A DNA stretch of 43,981 bases from a virus (Duplodnaviria > Heunggongvirae > Uroviricota > Caudoviricetes), in the IMG/VR virus record IMGVR_UViG_3300045988_012512, positions 1 through 43,981 of that record. The stretch is one strand, 5' to 3'. Shown piece by piece: positions 9,029 through 34,508 of this stretch. Below the pieces are notes generated by a model, which did no database searches, was not told the origin of the DNA, and saw nothing but the letters and a program-made list of their open reading frames with translations. Made by a program: the position numbers and the translations under genes. Each line of letters begins with the position of its first letter. Positions within the stretch are counted from its first letter, which is position 1.

Positions 9029-9057
9029 TTGCACACCCCAATATAATAGGGTACTAT
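9029..9057 (+). promoter_or_regulatory. sigma70-type promoter (TTGCAC-17-TACTAT) for the plus-strand island
   Basis: Canonical spacing; same promoter architecture recurs at 18527, 29673 and 30772. Confidence 0.55.
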
Positions 9058-18207: not shown

Positions 18208-18231
18208 GTTTCCCCTTTCTCGATAAGTAAA

Positions 18232-18258
18232 GCCCCGCCTTAAAGCGGGGCGCTAGTC
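18232..18258 (-). repeat. 27-nt conserved hairpin element (AGCGCCCCGCTTTAAGGCGGGGCTTTA), copy 1
   Basis: Near-identical to the plus-strand element at 31042..31068 (one mismatch, in the loop). Confidence 0.6.
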
Positions 18259-18526
18259 CTTATCATTTAAACATAGAAACGGCGTAATCTCAGTAAACCA
18301 GTTACTTTTTACACAAGCAATAGAGTATGGCCCTTCCGAACGCGTCAGCGTAACTACACTCAGGACTTACGTCCCGCTCCGTTACCTGCCCGCGCCGCGG
18401 TCGCTTGTTCATACTTCACAAGCTCAGGTGGAGCTTATCATATTTTCAGTGAAAAGTCAACTATTCGAATAGTTTATTCCAACGTTTACAATTGAGTGGA
18501 ATAACTGGAATACGTAAATAAATAGT

Positions 18527-18555
18527 TTGCGCACACCAACATAATAGGGTACTAT
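18527..18555 (+). promoter_or_regulatory. sigma70-type promoter (TTGCGC-17-TACTAT) for the DnaN-like gene
   Basis: Spacer and -10 region nearly identical to the promoter at 9029. Confidence 0.55.
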
Positions 18556-18582
18556 TCAGTTAACTTAAACAGGAGATGAGAA

Positions 18583-29858: not shown

Positions 29859-30062
29859 TCACACTTCTGGCGGCTCAGGTAACGGCATCCAGTGAGAAAA
29901 CACTTCCTGCGCATGTTCCCCGTAGTCCGCCCGGAAATCACACCAAGTTACCCCATCCCACTCGTACACATTGTTCTGGACAACACCGCCCATACTACTG
30001 ACGACCAAAACTGGTTGACCTAGCCCCGGCATCCGCGCACTACACTTAACCCACTCGCCCAT
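29859..30062 (-). CDS. DUF551-family phage protein
   Basis: C-terminal HWMPLPEPP signature. Confidence 0.6.
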   Translation of the reverse strand: MGEWVKCSARMPGLGQPVLVVSSMGGVVQNNVYEWDGVTWCDFRADYGEHAQEVFSHWMPLPEPPEV

Positions 30063-30065
30063 AAA

Positions 30066-30209
30066 TCACCCCTTATTCATCGCAGTTTGCACACCAGCTT
30101 TCCACGCCCGCCACGCGAGACGCGTCTTAACGTTCAGGTACTCTTTCTTTGAACCCTTGTTAACCGGCAGACCCTCGACCACAGCCCACCGTTCAAATGC
30201 TTCTCTCAT
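30066..30209 (-). CDS. hypothetical small protein (47 aa)
   Basis: ATGA-coupled to the upstream ORF. Confidence 0.3.
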   Translation of the reverse strand: MREAFERWAVVEGLPVNKGSKKEYLNVKTRLAWRAWKAGVQTAMNKG

Positions 30210-30361
30210 ACCAGAACCTCACATTCATCCCGATACACGAACAATAACGACCCTTTGTACTCAATCATAAAACCATAATGGTTGCTGCTGAACGCCAGAA
30301 AAACATCACCTACCGAGATACCGAAATCTATAAGCCTGCGGTCAGTTATACGGATTCGCAT
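30206..30361 (-). CDS. hypothetical small protein (51 aa)
   Basis: TAATG coupling to the upstream ORF. Confidence 0.3.
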   Translation of the reverse strand: MRIRITDRRLIDFGISVGDVFLAFSSNHYGFMIEYKGSLLFVYRDECEVLV

Positions 30362-30549
30362 TAACGGCAACCTCCCTCAGAGTCTTCGGCACGAGCATCA
30401 TGATTCGATGCCGTTCTCTCCCGCACTTCTACCATCCTTCCTACCACTGCGGCGTAATGCACATACAGCTTTATTGCGTAATCTTTATTACTTGTCGTCT
30501 CTGTTATGACTCCGTCGACGTATACGTCGTAAATTAATTCTTCCATCAC
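30361..30549 (-). CDS. hypothetical early protein
   Basis: 62-aa ORF, ATGA-coupled. Confidence 0.35.
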   Translation of the reverse strand: MMEELIYDVYVDGVITETTSNKDYAIKLYVHYAAVVGRMVEVRERTASNHDARAEDSEGGCR

Positions 30550-30737
30550 TTCGCCCCTTTGAATTTAAAATTGTTGCCGATTAGCTTTAAATTCTCTTCC
30601 GCTACGTATACCACCGAATTTACTCCTCTCACCTTTTGCACAGTAACTCCGTACTCTCCCGGAAATAAAGCGGATTTTAATTCAATCACACCGTATTTAC
30701 CGTCGGCGCATTTAACCAACTGACCCTTCTTAAACAT
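30546..30737 (-). CDS. hypothetical early protein
   Basis: GAGGAG RBS before ATG 30737; first gene after the promoter at 30772. Confidence 0.4.
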   Translation of the reverse strand: MFKKGQLVKCADGKYGVIELKSALFPGEYGVTVQKVRGVNSVVYVAEENLKLIGNNFKFKGAK

Positions 30738-30771
30738 AACCACCACTCCTCTGTCTCGTTTCGATAAGTGA

Positions 30772-30800
30772 ATAGTATCCTATTATATTGGGGTGTGCAA
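30772..30800 (-). promoter_or_regulatory. sigma70-type early promoter (TTGCAC-17-TACTAT)
   Basis: -35, spacer and -10 nearly identical to the promoter at 9029..9057. Confidence 0.55.
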
Positions 30801-31152
30801 GAGAATAGTTACGTTGCCGTTGTGATTCTTTCGTTTCTTTAAAGAGTACGCAACGCAGTGGGTGGGCGATAGCCCACCCCAGCGGAGTGAAGTACTCTCT
30901 ACCTTGCTTACGGCAACTAAAGAAACTTTTAATTATCAAGTACTTATGAATGGAGGTAAAATTTAAATAGACGGGGTCTTTCTTGTCACTTGCTGTTACT
31001 TTTAGGAAACTTAGATACTAACGTTACCAAGAGTACTGTTTAGCGCCCCGCTTTAGGGCGGGGCTTTAAGTACCCGAGACTTAAGAATAATGTTTCTAAG
31101 TAATTCTGAACTAAGGCCCTTCGATACGTTGATTTTACAGCTACATTTTATT
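30801..31152. promoter_or_regulatory. divergent control region with nested palindromes, AGTAC repeats and a conserved hairpin
   Basis: About 350 bp without credible ORFs between divergent operons; inverted repeat AGAGTAC/GTACTCT around an 8-bp GC hairpin; hairpin element at 31042..31068. Confidence 0.5.
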
Positions 31153-31192
31153 TTGTCAATAGGTTGTGTTTAGTTATTATAGGTGTTATAGT
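31153..31192 (+). promoter_or_regulatory. tandem sigma70-type promoters (TTGTCA-16-TATTAT and TTGTGT-17-TATAGT) for the plus-strand operon
   Basis: Hexamers with canonical spacing upstream of the gene at 31222. Confidence 0.45.
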
Positions 31193-31221
31193 TGTTTAAC
31201 TTGATAAAGAGGGCGTGTAAA

Positions 31222-31401
31222 ATGACACAGAAAGAAGTAGCAGACTTAATCGGAGTTTCCACTATGACTCTTAATCGCTGGCTTCGGTCCGGTAAGTTCC
31301 CGGAGTGTTGCCGTGTTATTAACGGCTACCGGCAGCCAGGTACGTTTGACCGCGCTACCGTGGAGGCGTGGATTAAGGAGAACGTGAAAGATGCTAACTA
31401 A
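31222..31401 (+). CDS. small HTH DNA-binding protein (AlpA/excisionase-like)
   Basis: MTQKEVADLIGVSTMTLNRWLRSGKFP; AGAGGG RBS (ORF track starts at 31192 with a non-ATG codon). Confidence 0.5.
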   Translation: MTQKEVADLIGVSTMTLNRWLRSGKFPECCRVINGYRQPGTFDRATVEAWIKENVKDAN

Positions 31402-31666
31402 ATTCCAGAAACACATATTAATGTGTGCGCGCAGACTTACCGAGGCGAACGGTGCTTTTACGGTAGATGGGCTTCGTAGATACCGGTTAGATAATTACGG
31501 TGTAAATCCGATTAAACATGCTTTAAATGTTCTTGAGCAACACGGAGAGGTTCTTAATAAAGGAAAGTTTTATCGGGCAACAAGAGCAACGCCGATTACA
31601 GAGAAAGCGAGAAGTATTGGAAAAGTGTTGGTCCCCGAGGGTAATATCTCCCGCGACCTGGAATAA
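31391..31666 (+). CDS. hypothetical protein
   Basis: 91-aa ORF overlapping the upstream stop. Confidence 0.4.
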   Translation: MLTKFQKHILMCARRLTEANGAFTVDGLRRYRLDNYGVNPIKHALNVLEQHGEVLNKGKFYRATRATPITEKARSIGKVLVPEGNISRDLE

Positions 31667-31724
31667 AAGAAAGCCCCGACGCGGTGAACGCCGAGGCCAA
31701 ATTACTTACTGAAGGAAATACAAC

Positions 31725-33992
31725 ATGTCCGATGTAATTTTATCCTACTCGTGGTCTCGTCGCAACGCGCGGGCAGAGAAAAAGGATATAAACGTCAGAA
31801 CCACACACACGGCAACACTGGACGACCTGAAAGAGTTAATCCAGCCGCTTGATGCTGTCCGTGACGGAATTAACCCGAAGACAGCGCCCGGTTATATCAC
31901 CGCCGCGTGCGACTCAACGCACAGCACCGTAAAAGACCCGGAAACCGGTGACTTTAAGCGAGCGCGTAAAGGCTTCTTCTATCGCTGTGACGCGTCTGTA
32001 AGCAAATCATCGCTGGCGTATCTGGACTTTGACAGCGCAACGCCGGAAGAGTATCAGGAAGCGGTGCGCCTGGTTAAGCGTAGCCGCCAGGCTATGTGTC
32101 TCTACACCACGGCATCCCATACCGATGAGTCACCGCGCTTTCGCGTCGTCATGCCGCTGGGCCGCCCGGTCGAAGGGGGCGACATCATCCGCATACGTCA
32201 TGGATTGCTGGAGCACTTCTTCAAAGGCATGGGCGCTGACCGTAGCGGGTTCACTTTGTCTCAGCCCATGTACCTTCCTCCGGTAGGCTCTCAGGTTATC
32301 TGGTCGCGCCGTAACGACCTTATTGACCCGGAAGAGTTACTGGAAGGCATCCCCGCCGTTGACGTTAGCAGCGCATCTGACTACCAGATACCGGAAGAAC
32401 TGCGCACTGCATTTACTGATGCGTTCGAGGCACTGGCGTTCGAATACGGCGGCATCATGACGCCGCGTGGCCTTAAGATGCCCGCCACACCGGAACACGC
32501 AGAAAACTACAGCGACCCGACCCCGCGCCCGGACGACTTCCTGCTGTGCTTCCCGCGCGAGGGATATGAAGCGCCGAACGTAACGATGATTCACGACACC
32601 GACATCACGGCAACCGAAGGCATGTCGCCGAAAGAGGTGTGGAAGTATGCGTGTGATGCGACCGGACTGCCGTTCAGTGAAGTCGCAGAGGCCATCGGAT
32701 GGGGCGCGCGTGAAGCCGTCTCATGCAGCCTGGATGACCTTGAAGACGACGAGGACTCAGAGGAGGACGAGTTACCGGAACCGGTAAAGGCTGATTTCGT
32801 CGTTGAGGGGTACATGCCGTCGGATTGTATCTGGGATATTGTTGGGGAGTCTGGCACGTATAAATCATTCTATACGCTGGGGATGATGTACCTGAGCGCC
32901 GCCGGATACCGGTTTGCCGGGGCAGATACCCAGCGTTGCCACCATTTCTATATCGACGGTGAGGGCGGTGCCACTACACGCACCCGTATTGATGCACTCG
33001 CGGCTAAATATGGCGAGGAAGGTAAAGATTATGTACATGTTATCGATATGGGTGAAGTCGGAAAACTGAAAAGCCTGATTAAGTTAATGCGCGAAACTGC
33101 GGGTGATGAACCCATCGGCATGGTCGCGTTCGACACCCTTAACCAGACGCTGGCCCTGACGATTGATAAGTTCGACGAGAACAGTTCATCAACGGCAATC
33201 GGCATGGGTAAAGTTATCGCCATCCTGAAAGAAGTACGCGACGCAACTAAAGCCGCGGCAGGCGTTGTACACCATACGCCGAAGGGTGGAAAGAAAGCCC
33301 GTGGCAGTGGAGCATTGTATGCTGGTGTCGACGTGGAACTGACAATCGAACGTGCTACCGACCGTCAGATAAACGTATACCACTCTAAATTTAAGCACGG
33401 GCCTCAACAGAAGACGGTTGGCATGGTACTGGAGTCGGTACAGTTTCGTGAAGCACCGCCGCCGAAAGAGTACCGCGCGGTTGAGTTCCTCGGTAGCACA
33501 GAGGAATACGGCACAATAGTAAACCTCGACCTGCCTGAGCCGCACAAGGCGCTTGTGCTGATGCCGTGGGGCTTCGAGCCGTTCAAGACTGATGAGGAGA
33601 AAGAGCGGGAAGAAGGGTTAACTAACGAAGGTAAACAAAATGTACGTAAAACCGTAGAGAACGCCGTCAACAGTTCCGAGTCCACTATACTCGCGGCGTT
33701 TGAACTGGCGGAGGGGACCTACAACGGCAACGAAGGTATCACGGTATCCGCGGCGAATAAGCTCGCACAGTCTGACCCCAACGCAAAGGCGTTTAACTCC
33801 AAAGAAGCCATAGAACGCGGGAAGATTAAGAAAATGGTTGAGGCTGGGTATCTTGTTCCGGGTACTGACGAAAACAATCAGATAATCCCAGGCCGTTACA
33901 GACTTAACACCCGGATAACGGATAACAAGATTCCGAAGACAATATACGAACCCAATGAGATGCTGACAGTGACAGAGGAGGATTTGGAATGA
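31725..33992 (+). CDS. replication protein: primase-like N-terminal domain plus RecA-like ATPase/helicase domain
   Basis: N-terminal LAYLDFD and SHTDESPRFRV (primase-polymerase-like); central GESGTYKS P-loop and MVAFDTL Walker-B-like segment. Confidence 0.55.
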   Translation: MSDVILSYSWSRRNARAEKKDINVRTTHTATLDDLKELIQPLDAVRDGINPKTAPGYITAACDSTHSTVKDPETGDFKRARKGFFYRCDASVSKSSLAYLDFDSATPEEYQEAVRLVKRSRQAMCLYTTASHTDESPRFRVVMPLGRPVEGGDIIRIRHGLLEHFFKGMGADRSGFTLSQPMYLPPVGSQVIWSRRNDLIDPEELLEGIPAVDVSSASDYQIPEELRTAFTDAFEALAFEYGGIMTPRGLKMPATPEHAENYSDPTPRPDDFLLCFPREGYEAPNVTMIHDTDITATEGMSPKEVWKYACDATGLPFSEVAEAIGWGAREAVSCSLDDLEDDEDSEEDELPEPVKADFVVEGYMPSDCIWDIVGESGTYKSFYTLGMMYLSAAGYRFAGADTQRCHHFYIDGEGGATTRTRIDALAAKYGEEGKDYVHVIDMGEVGKLKSLIKLMRETAGDEPIGMVAFDTLNQTLALTIDKFDENSSSTAIGMGKVIAILKEVRDATKAAAGVVHHTPKGGKKARGSGALYAGVDVELTIERATDRQINVYHSKFKHGPQQKTVGMVLESVQFREAPPPKEYRAVEFLGSTEEYGTIVNLDLPEPHKALVLMPWGFEPFKTDEEKEREEGLTNEGKQNVRKTVENAVNSSESTILAAFELAEGTYNGNEGITVSAANKLAQSDPNAKAFNSKEAIERGKIKKMVEAGYLVPGTDENNQIIPGRYRLNTRITDNKIPKTIYEPNEMLTVTEEDLE

Positions 33993-34479: not shown

Positions 34480-34508
34480 TTGACATGTGAATAGTTCGCT
34501 ATTATAGT
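34480..34508 (+). promoter_or_regulatory. consensus sigma70 promoter (TTGACA-17-TATAGT)
   Basis: Perfect -35; overlaps the second copy of the ATGTGAATAGT direct repeat. Confidence 0.6.

What the first reader, a model, noticed from the sequence alone, without database searches (positions are those of the whole stretch)
30801..31200. Divergent control region with nested palindromes and five AGTAC-core repeats (origin or operator candidate)
About 400 bp between the divergent early operons has no credible ORF. It contains an outer inverted repeat AGAGTAC ... GTACTCT enclosing a perfect 8-bp hairpin (GGGTGGGC-GATA-GCCCACCC), five copies of an (A/G)AGTAC motif, the conserved hairpin element and tandem promoters. 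Clustered iterons plus palindromes are typical of replication origins or multi-operator switches. The ORF-track ORF 30730..30939 lies over the promoter and is probably not real.
Basis: seen in the sequence. Interest (0 to 1): 0.5.

Follow-up and report, generated by a model that had tools for sequence, protein, structure and literature searches.

The report
Phage control spacer: hairpins, not iterons
The non-coding stretch between two divergent operons of this Kagunavirus phage is most likely an ordinary, modular transcription-control spacer (edge promoters, two terminator-type hairpins, a conserved host IHF site), and its "AGTAC repeats" are mostly hairpin stem arms, not origin or operator repeats.

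Summary
The iteron/operator reading does not survive comparison with relatives.

The window is a Kagunavirus, about 94% identical to phage K1H. The spacer 30738-31221 holds no ORF shared with relatives.

Four of the five (A/G)AGTAC copies are the outer-stem arms of two composite GC hairpins:
- hairpin 1: arms 30843-49 / 30892-98 around 30860-79;
- hairpin 2: arms 31031-37 / 31069-75 around 31045-64.

In two relatives the hairpin 2 arms read GTGAC/GTCAC, with compensatory changes. A second copy of that hairpin at 18232-51 has GATAAG/CTTATC arms. The fifth AGTAC copy lies in the free NNNN of an IHF consensus, and no relative carries it there. Of 45 homologous spacers, 25 have no AGTAC copy.

What is conserved:
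- the left promoter block, built on the genus-wide promoter motif;
- the 13-bp IHF core, exact in 38 of 45 spacers;
- the layout: promoters at both edges, exchangeable hairpin cassettes between them, T-tails pointing outward.

Best model (inferred, no transcript data): inward-facing promoters give convergent non-coding transcripts, each stopped by the far hairpin. An origin cannot be excluded, but nothing specific supports one.

The parts
30761..30800 (.). Left-edge promoter block on the genus-wide motif GTGAATAGTATCCTATTATAT. The gene-side promoter P_L2 is on the minus strand: -35 TTGCAC at 30800-30795, 17-nt spacer, -10 TACTAT at 30777-30772. An inward-facing promoter-like site is on the plus strand: -35 TCGATA at 30761-66, 17-nt spacer, -10 TATATT at 30784-89.
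   Evidence: The palindrome GAATAGTnnnCTATT gives 23 hits against 3.2 expected, at about 10 intergenic sites. The block is kept in all 45 relatives. PMC9825357 lists the motif as a predicted phage promoter consensus.
30801..30832 (.). Conserved block AGAGAATAGTTACGTTGCCGTTGTGATTCTT. This is the best conserved stretch of the spacer across Kagunavirus and Jerseyvirus. It contains the 5' arm GTTGCCGT (30813-20) of the closing inverted repeat. Its function is unassigned.
   Evidence: query positions 5-91 are the only part found in nearly all 190 matching phage records..
30833..30909 (.). Exchangeable cassette B1 carrying composite hairpin 1. Outer stem AGAGTAC 30843-49 / GTACTCT 30892-98; inner stem GGGTGGGC 30860-67 / GCCCACCC 30872-79. 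The T-rich tail is on the minus strand (GTACTCTTTAAAG). Reading: leftward terminator or insulator.
   Evidence: Relatives carry one of three unrelated cassettes here, each with a GC hairpin. The B2 and B3 hairpins are called terminators on the leftward strand. A compensatory change is seen in the B2 stem.
30910..30917 (.). 3' arm ACGGCAAC of the closing inverted repeat. It is a conserved island next to all three cassettes.
   Evidence: Both arms are present in 39 of 45 spacers. Two relatives lost this arm in a 16-nt deletion.
30934..30946 (+). TATCAAGTACTTA, a match to the IHF core consensus WATCARNNNNTTR. The third AGTAC copy lies in its NNNN.
   Evidence: Only 5 matches in the window. The core is exact at the same position in 38 of 45 relatives and has one mismatch in the other 7. 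The consensus is as used in PMC9820253.
30966..30987 (.). Conserved island AATAGAC followed by a weak hairpin (30970-87). In relatives, the island is the T-rich tail (TCTATT) of a leftward terminator-like hairpin.
31031..31075 (+). Composite hairpin 2. Outer stem GAGTACT 31031-37 / AGTACCC 31069-75; inner stem GCCCCGC 31045-51 / GCGGGGC 31058-64; tail TTTAAGT on the plus strand. Reading: rightward terminator.
   Evidence: It is 96% identical over 28 nt to 18228-18255, inverted, and that copy is called a terminator. The outer stem covaries in L144/L151.
31132..31159 (-). Inward-facing leftward sigma-70 promoter P_L1, TTGACA-16-TAAAAT (11 of 12 consensus positions).
   Evidence: It is invariant in all 7 right halves of the same type. 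The other right-half types carry a leftward site with a good -35 box here (TTGACT or TTGACA, 17-nt spacer) but a weak -10 box (TAAGCT, TAAGGT); one type has TTGAAA-18-TATAAT.
31153..31192 (+). Rightward overlapping promoters P_R for the HTH/replication operon: TTGTCA-16-TATTAT (31153-80) and TTGTGT-17-TATAGT (31164-92). The -35 box is shared back-to-back with P_L1.
   Evidence: It aligns with TTGCTT-17-TATACT in relatives. The HTH gene is one of four early genes in Kagunavirus K1B4 (PMC12645636).
31222..31401 (+). First rightward gene, a 59-aa HTH_17 (excisionase/MerR-like) DNA-binding protein. It is a candidate regulator of the region.
   Evidence: Pfam PF12728, E = 1.3e-08. phrog_66.

Best explanation
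The spacer 30738-31221 is a modular transcription-control region of a lytic Kagunavirus that uses host RNA polymerase.

Each edge carries a back-to-back promoter pair. At the left edge, the genus-wide promoter motif faces away from its gene. The gene-side promoter reads TTGCAC-17-TACTAT, and the motif's own face points into the spacer. At the right edge, the rightward promoters of the early HTH/replication operon share their -35 box with a strong leftward promoter, TTGACA-16-TAAAAT.

The interior has two composite GC hairpins around a conserved IHF site and an AT-rich core. The T-rich tail of hairpin 1 is on the leftward strand. The tail of hairpin 2 is on the rightward strand.

Inferred model: the two inward promoters produce convergent, largely overlapping non-coding transcripts of roughly 250-290 nt. 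Each passes the near hairpin and is stopped by the far one. This keeps it from running antisense into the opposite operon. IHF bends the centre of the spacer.

The AGTAC word is the sequence this particular phage uses for the outer helices of both hairpins, plus one chance copy.

Shown here: the sequence features, their conservation or exchange among relatives, the covariation, and the paralogy with a second control region. Inferred: promoter use, termination, IHF binding.
For: Identity and context. The window is about 94% identical to Kagunavirus K1H. None of the ten largest ORFs has an RNA polymerase domain. The spacer has no shared ORF, no Rfam family and no tRNA.

AGTAC copies are stem arms. 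Folding puts GUACU/AGUAC and AGAGUAC/GUACUCU as the outer helices. L144 and L151 keep the hairpin 2 architecture with GUGAC/GUCAC: two pairs are changed on both sides and one T-A becomes T.G. The paralogous copy at 18232-51 uses GAUAAG/CUUAUC. The number of AGTAC copies per spacer is 0 in 25, 2 in 15, 4 in 4, and 5 only in this window.

Modularity. There are 45 unique homologous spacers, 41 of them 452-504 bp long; four longer values include an extra small gene. Only three unrelated left cassettes occur, each with a GC hairpin at the same place. A compensatory change is seen in the B2 stem, GGGCAGGC/GCCTGCCC versus GGGCAGGT/ACCTGCCC.

Terminator orientation. In relatives, the scan tool calls hairpin 1 equivalents on the leftward strand and hairpin 2 equivalents on the rightward strand. 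Hairpin 2 is 96% identical to a hairpin that is called a terminator at 18251-18232.

Promoters. Eight promoter-like sites against 1.7 expected. P_L1 matches 11 of 12 positions and P_R 10 of 12. The motif forms TTGACA-17-TATAGT promoters ahead of genes at 34489, 37112 and 40675. At 9045 it faces genes in both directions. The right-half module of other phages' spacers is homologous (78-87% over 145 nt) to 18318-18460 of this window. There it holds a promoter-like site, TTGACT-17-TAAGCT, that faces the Rz/scaffold/major-head operon.

IHF. The core is at 30934-46, one of 5 in the window. It is exact in 38 of 45 relatives at a conserved position.
Against: No transcript data exist for this region, so every promoter and terminator is a consensus match.

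In the window itself neither hairpin meets the scan tool's T-tract threshold. The tails have only 4 T in 8 nt.

The inward plus-strand promoter is weak (TCGATA/TATATT, 9 of 12). In several right-half types the leftward promoter has a poor -10 box (TAAGCT, TAAGGT).

In all 22 unique sequences the 30813-30917 domain folds 1-17 kcal/mol better as plus-strand RNA. Three substitutions give G.U pairs only on the plus strand. This fits a structured plus-strand RNA better than a leftward terminator.

The distance from the IHF site to the promoters varies by about 30 bp, so a phased DNA loop is not supported.

The strongly conserved block 30801-30832 is not explained by this model.
Confidence: 0.6

Rival explanations
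1. The spacer is the phage replication origin. Transcription from the inward promoters into the AT-rich, IHF-bent core opens the DNA or primes it, as at the T7 primary origin, the T4 ori(uvsY) R-loop, or transcriptional activation of lambda ori. The helicase-primase encoded just downstream then loads there.
For: The spacer lies directly upstream of the HTH / helicase-primase / DNA polymerase A operon. The core 30897-31030 is 65-72% AT, in a genome of about 49% AT. A conserved IHF core sits in the centre. Strong promoters point into non-coding DNA. The cumulative GC skew has its minimum near 31000. The octamer GTTGCCGT is locally dense: 5 copies in 30364-31809.
Against: The GC-skew minimum coincides with the switch in gene strand. 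Skew also follows gene orientation at 9-12 kb, so it adds no independent support. There are no DnaA boxes and no conserved iterons. The same modules (hairpin 2, and the right-half module of relatives) also occur in a second control region, at 18.2-18.6 kb ahead of late genes. That argues for general transcription elements. No origin has been mapped in this subfamily in the searched literature.
Confidence: 0.15
2. The region encodes one or two functional structured non-coding RNAs. For example, a roughly 275-nt plus-strand RNA could run from about 30796 to 31070. Its 5' domain would be closed by GUUGCCGU/ACGGCAAC. It could act as a regulator or as an antisense partner of the leftward leader, rather than being mere insulation.
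For: The spacer folds better than shuffled sequence on both strands (z = -3.8 and -4.0). The domain 30813-30917 is closed by the same helix in all three cassettes. It always folds more stably on the plus strand. Substitutions in relatives give G.U on the plus strand only (L003, L015, L001/L017, L144). Conservation extends from the plus-face promoter about 45 nt downstream. A plus-strand terminator copy sits at the 3' end.
Against: No Rfam family matches. The interior of the domain is replaced by unrelated cassettes. Two relatives lack the 3' arm of the closing helix. Single changes at the helix ends are not compensated. The plus-face promoter is weak. There are effectively only three independent cassettes, so the strand asymmetry has little statistical weight.
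Confidence: 0.15
3. One reading: the five AGTAC-core repeats are protein-binding iterons or operators, for the adjacent HTH protein or for the replication initiator.
For: The local cluster is statistically unusual in this genome. AGTACT is palindromic. An HTH_17 gene is adjacent.
Against: 25 of 45 homologous spacers have no copy, and only this window has five. Four copies are paired stem arms that covary or are replaced by other sequences. The fifth is absent from all six other right halves of the same type. The copies do not overlap promoter hexamers; the nearest gap is 44 bp. The B1 arms occur with at least four HTH variants.
Confidence: 0.04

Closest known systems
Phage Mu early control region (divergent Pe/Pc promoters with an IHF site in the spacer); from established knowledge, not tested here
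   Same: Divergent phage promoters separated by non-coding DNA. An IHF consensus site lies between them. A small DNA-binding regulator gene is adjacent.
   Different: No repeated operator set was identified here. The spacer is much longer (484 bp) and contains terminator-type hairpins. The phage is strictly lytic. The IHF-to-promoter distance is not fixed among relatives.
Lambda PR'-6S RNA-tR' late leader (a promoter, a short non-coding transcript, and a terminator ahead of genes)
   Same: A strong sigma-70-type promoter is followed by a few hundred nt of non-coding leader. The leader ends in a GC hairpin just before the genes. The window's own late-operon leader (18208-18460) has this layout. 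It shares modules with the spacers studied here.
   Different: No Q- or N-type antiterminator was found among about 48 ORFs scanned with PHROGs. No qut or nut elements are known for this group. In this window hairpin 2 is inverted relative to leftward transcription. The left operon also has its own promoter downstream of hairpin 1.
Bidirectional or convergent intrinsic terminators and promoter-terminator coupling in bacteria
   Same: GC hairpins have A-rich 5' and T-rich 3' flanks that pair into an extended stem. They are placed next to promoters facing the other way. In the R2-type module the -10 box (TAAGCT) lies inside the hairpin.
   Different: The T-tracts in this window are short (4 of 8). 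Termination is untested.
Iteron origins (plasmid type, lambda ori, P4 ori/crr) and transcription-activated origins (T7, T4)
   Same: The location beside replication genes, an AT-rich core, an IHF site, and promoters that read into it.
   Different: There are no conserved direct repeats, no DnaA boxes and no initiator-matched repeat. The claimed repeats are hairpin arms.

Membership tests
Iteron-type replication origin | Three or more copies of an initiator-binding repeat, conserved in related replicons | tested here: not met
   The number of RAGTAC copies per homologous spacer is 0 in 25, 2 in 15, 4 in 4 and 5 in 1. No other repeat is shared by all variants.
Iteron-type replication origin | The repeats are independent binding units, not parts of another element | tested here: not met
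   Four of the five copies are outer-stem arms of hairpins. They are replaced by GTGAC/GTCAC or GATAAG/CTTATC in homologous hairpins.
Iteron-type replication origin | An adjacent AT-rich unwinding element and host-factor sites (DnaA, IHF) | tested here: inconclusive
   The core 30897-31030 is 65-72% AT, and an IHF core is present. There is no DnaA box with one mismatch or fewer apart from promoter hexamers.
Iteron-type replication origin | Replication initiates there | not testable with these tools
   The GC-skew minimum at about 31000 coincides with the gene-strand switch, and skew tracks gene orientation elsewhere.
Multi-operator genetic switch (lambda OR/OL type) | Repeated operators that overlap the promoter hexamers | tested here: not met
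   The nearest AGTAC copy is 44 bp from the P_L2 -35 box and 59 bp from the P_L1 -10 box. The palindrome GAATAGTATCCTATT does overlap P_L2, but it is a genome-wide promoter motif.
Multi-operator genetic switch (lambda OR/OL type) | The operator sequence varies together with the cognate regulator | tested here: not met
   The B1 cassette arms occur with at least four HTH_17 variants.
IHF binding site | A match to the 13-bp core WATCARNNNNTTR | tested here: met
   TATCAAGTACTTA at 30934-46. The window has 5 matches against 2.4 expected. The consensus is as in PMC9820253.
IHF binding site | Conservation of the specified positions while NNNN and the flanks vary | tested here: met
   The core is exact in 38 of 45 spacers and has one mismatch in 7. 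It holds the same position across all cassette and right-half types.
IHF binding site | IHF binds and bends the DNA | not testable with these tools
   No paper links IHF to Kagunavirus or Jerseyvirus.
Intrinsic (Rho-independent) terminator | A GC-rich stem-loop | tested here: met
   Hairpin 1 has an 8-bp all-G/C inner stem. Hairpin 2 has a 7-8-bp stem.
Intrinsic (Rho-independent) terminator | A T-tract directly after the stem | tested here: inconclusive
   The window's hairpins fall below the scan threshold. The equivalents in relatives and the paralog at 18251-18232 pass it, with consistent orientation.
Known RNA family (Rfam 15) | A covariance-model match | tested here: not met
   The best match is RsmY at 14.1 bits against a gathering score of 57, E = 1.6. 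It is driven by the terminal hairpin only.

The most novel reading that the evidence does not exclude
The IHF-centred, AT-rich core, transcribed from both sides by inward-facing promoters and bracketed by outward-pointing terminators, is the transcription-activated bidirectional replication origin of Guernseyvirinae phages. It lies immediately upstream of the helicase-primase operon. The convergent non-coding transcripts would open or prime it.
Probability: 0.15. Interest if true: 0.55.

Novelty: new member of a known kind. Interest (0 to 1): 0.3.

Why it matters
Kagunaviruses are being developed as therapeutic and synthetic-biology phages (BASEL extension). Their early control region has not been dissected in any paper found in the searches made here.

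This analysis replaces an origin/iteron guess with a concrete, testable map:
- two edge promoter pairs;
- two oriented terminator hairpins;
- an IHF core conserved across Kagunavirus and Jerseyvirus;
- three swappable hairpin cassettes.

The map gives defined break-points for engineering. It also makes a clear prediction for transcript-end mapping. The finding itself is ordinary phage gene-control architecture.

Tried and rejected
- Rfam at E up to 10 over 30000-32000 found nothing meaningful. There are no tRNA or tmRNA genes.
- Protein coding: the 69-aa ORF and all other spacer ORFs are not shared with relatives and match no family.
- DnaA boxes: none.
- GC skew as an origin marker was rejected. 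It tracks gene orientation.
- A pac/cos site was considered because P1 pac has hexamer repeats around an IHF site. Three points argue against it. The repeats are not conserved. The terminase genes lie about 7 kb away. PhageTerm found no termini in fBC-Eco01.
- GTTGCCGT as an sRNA seed with targets in phage mRNAs was rejected. Its orientation relative to mRNA sense is 11:9.
- The octamer as a codon-usage artefact was rejected. Codon-order shuffles give 2.2 copies against 20 observed in genes.
- A 14-mer scan of viral contigs returned only random hits.
- A fixed-window hairpin finder missed the GC hairpins and was not used.
- The count of structure pairs was not run on hairpin 2. MAFFT offset the 3' arm of L144/L151 by one column. 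The covariation was instead read from the sequences and from per-sequence folds.
- IHF-mediated phased looping was rejected. The site-to-promoter distance varies by about 30 bp.
- The conserved island ATCAGnnACTTA was tested as a sigma-70 promoter on either strand. The hexamers are not consistent across variants.

Full report
**Identity and setting.** The window is a Kagunavirus (Guernseyvirinae). Positions 30001-32000 match phages K1H, K1G and K1ind2/3 at about 93-94% identity over 92-93% of the query.

The spacer runs from the first leftward gene to a rightward gene. By my reading the leftward gene starts at ATG 30737, with GAGGAG at 30747-52; the ORF listing starts the ORF at GTG 30746. The rightward gene starts at ATG 31222 and encodes a 59-aa HTH_17 protein.

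Rightward follow a phrog_5169 ORF, the helicase-primase (AAA_25), a Gp2.5-like SSB, DNA polymerase A and an SNF2 helicase. Leftward follow small unknown genes, then holins and endolysin, then terminase and portal. The left arm is therefore not purely "early".

None of the ten largest ORFs has an RNA polymerase domain. Transcription must therefore rely on the host enzyme. In Kagunavirus K1B4 the HTH gene is one of only four early genes (PMC12645636).

The 8-bp perfect hairpin, the AGAGTAC/GTACTCT arms and two more nested inverted repeats are at the stated places. RAGTAC gives 7 strand-hits (5 loci) in 30844-31073, where about 0.18 would be expected from the window-wide density. Three of the window's four AGTACT sites lie there. 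The spacer folds better than shuffled sequence on both strands (z = -3.8 and -4.0). Promoter-like sites are enriched, 8 against 1.7 expected. There is no Rfam family and no tRNA. ORF 30730-30939(-) has no family match and is missing from K1H. No ORF is common to the homologous spacers.

**What the AGTAC copies are.** Folding places copies 1 and 2 as the outer helix of composite hairpin 1. Copies 4 and 5 form the outer helix of composite hairpin 2.

I collected 45 distinct homologous spacers from viral and metagenome contigs. AGTAC is absent from 25 of them. It is present twice in 15, where the two copies are the arms of hairpin 1. It is present four times in 4, and five times only in this window.

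Among seven right halves of the window's type, L144 and L151 keep the fold of hairpin 2 but read AGTGACT...GGTCACC instead of GAGTACT...AGTACCC. Two pairs are changed on both sides (T-A to G-C and G-C to T-A), and one T-A becomes T.G.

A 96%-identical copy of the inner hairpin lies inverted at 18228-18255. Its outer helix is GATAAG/CTTATC. Pairing is therefore what is kept, not the word.

Copy 3 (30938) lies in the NNNN of an IHF consensus. The other six right halves of this type have different bases there.

The copies do not overlap promoter hexamers. The hairpin 1 arms occur with at least four variants of the HTH protein. The iteron/operator reading is not supported.

**What is conserved.**
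1. The left block 30744-30832 is the only part found in nearly all 190 matching phage records, including Salmonella jerseyviruses.
   - It contains the genus-wide motif GTGAATAGTATCCTATTATAT. The palindrome gives 23 hits against 3.2 expected, at about 10 intergenic sites. PMC9825357 lists it as a predicted phage promoter.
   - Ahead of rightward genes the motif forms TTGACA-17-TATAGT promoters. At 30770 it faces the other way. There the gene-side promoter reads TTGCAC-17-TACTAT, and the motif's own face points into the spacer (TCGATA-17-TATATT).
   - At 9045 there are genes on both sides.
2. The 13-bp core TATCAAGTACTTA at 30934-46 matches the IHF consensus WATCARNNNNTTR (PMC9820253). It is one of five matches in the window. 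It is exact in 38 of 45 spacers and one mismatch off in the rest. It stays 185-215 nt from the left gene and 284-306 nt from the HTH start, whatever lies around it.
3. The layout is kept, with spacer lengths of 452-504 bp in 41 of 45. Four longer values include an extra small gene.

**What is exchanged.** Between 30833 and 30909, relatives carry one of three unrelated cassettes: B1 in 20, B2 in 16 and B3 in 9.
- Each cassette has a GC hairpin at the same place.
- In 39 of 45 spacers each is closed by GTTGCCGT/ACGGCA. Two relatives lost the 3' arm in a 16-nt deletion yet keep the IHF core.
- The B2 stem shows a compensatory change.
- The right half occurs in at least four types.

The R2 type found in other phages is homologous (78-87% over about 145 nt) to 18318-18460 of this window. 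That stretch lies in a second divergent control region, between the Rz/Rz1-scaffold-major head operon and a RusA-like gene. The elements of the spacer are therefore general transcription modules that are reused and shuffled.

**Orientation of the hairpins.** In relatives the scan tool calls the hairpin 1 equivalents of B2 and B3 as terminators on the leftward strand. It calls the hairpin 2 equivalents as terminators on the rightward strand. It also calls a middle leftward hairpin whose tail is the conserved AATAGA island.

The paralog of hairpin 2 at 18251-18232 is called a terminator. In the window, the tails are GTACTCTTTAAAG on the minus strand (hairpin 1) and GGGGCTTTAAGT on the plus strand (hairpin 2). 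Both fall just under the tool's threshold.

**Model.** Two promoters point into the spacer: P_L1 (TTGACA-16-TAAAAT, 31159-31132, 11 of 12) and the plus face of the motif. Together with the hairpin orientations, this gives convergent, overlapping non-coding transcripts. Each would be stopped by the far hairpin before it reaches the opposite promoter pair. IHF would bind in the centre. The model is inferred. No transcript ends are available.

**Points that do not fit neatly.**
- The domain 30813-30917 always folds better as plus-strand RNA.
- Several substitutions give G.U pairs only on that strand.
- The block 30801-30832 is more conserved than a terminator tail or an upstream promoter region needs to be.

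A functional plus-strand RNA, or a protein site in that block, remains possible.

**Origin.** There are no DnaA boxes. The GC-skew minimum at about 31000 coincides with the gene-strand switch, and skew follows gene orientation at 9-12 kb as well. No origin has been mapped for this subfamily in the searched literature. A transcription-activated origin in the AT-rich, IHF-centred core is not excluded. I give it about 0.15.

**Verdict.** The divergent control region is supported, and the iterons, operators and origin are not. This is a new, well-resolved example of a known kind of phage control region, and its interest is modest.

Noticed in passing
whole window; copies at 1422, 2198, 4321, 5530, 6432, 7790, 16948, 17765, 29198, 30364, 30813, 30910, 31307, 31809, 32607, 33724, 36140, 39696, 39733, 40203, 40384, 40809: GTTGCCGT/ACGGCAAC is the most frequent octamer of the window. 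It has 22 copies, against 2.1 in dinucleotide shuffles. Codon-order shuffles give 2.2 copies against 20 observed in genes. It occurs in all frames, with an orientation of 11:9 relative to mRNA sense, and has no extended consensus. Its density is 0.58 per kb in 305 kb of related loci, 0.10 per kb in unrelated viral contigs and 0.12 per kb in 50 kb of E. coli K-12. No paper holds the word. It remains unexplained.
   Followed up: partly
window 18208-18582: A second divergent control region. A leftward TTGACT-17-TAAGCT promoter-like site (18460-18432) is followed by a leader of about 180-200 nt. Next comes a predicted terminator, GCCCCGC-TTTAAG-GCGGGGC plus TTTACTTATC (18251-18232). It ends only about 20 nt before the Rz/Rz1-scaffold-major head genes. 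All transcription into that late operon must pass this terminator. The layout resembles lambda PR'-6S-tR', but no Q-like protein was found among the PHROG-scanned ORFs.
   Followed up: partly
window 9045, 18452, 18543, 26662, 29671, 30770, 34445, 34489, 37112, 40675: The 23-nt motif GTGAATAGTnnnCTATTATA(G/T)T marks about 10 intergenic sites. It is used in both orientations relative to the downstream gene. At 9045 genes lie on both sides, so it looks like a bidirectional promoter core or a promoter with a built-in palindromic operator. PMC9825357 attributes it to a phage RNA polymerase. None of the ten largest ORFs of this window has an RNA polymerase domain.
   Followed up: partly
L008, and B3 cassettes in L015, L018, L023, L027, L030, L144, L151, L152: The B3 cassette carries a (GAGT)n microsatellite 3' of its hairpin. 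There are 3 units in most phages and 6 in L008.
   Followed up: no
L144 and L151 (spacer positions about 165-175): A natural 16-nt deletion removes the 3' arm (TACGGCA) of the closing inverted repeat but leaves the IHF core intact. These are the shortest spacers, 456-460 nt as extracted.
   Followed up: yes
L170, L171, L172 (after CAAGAG, equivalent to window 30802): A 10-nt insertion, ATTCATTGAA, lies between the -35 box of the leftward promoter and the conserved block. It shifts the block by about one helical turn.
   Followed up: no
window 31132-31139 and 31216-31223: A perfect 8-nt inverted repeat, ATTTTACA / TGTAAAAT, brackets the rightward promoters. One arm overlaps the -10 box of the leftward promoter and the other overlaps the HTH start codon (repeat I20). 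It is a candidate autoregulatory site for the HTH_17 protein.
   Followed up: no
L171 and three other spacers (length about 640): Some relatives have an extra small ORF (MVTLTEEQLEKLL...) inserted between the rightward promoter and the HTH gene.
   Followed up: no
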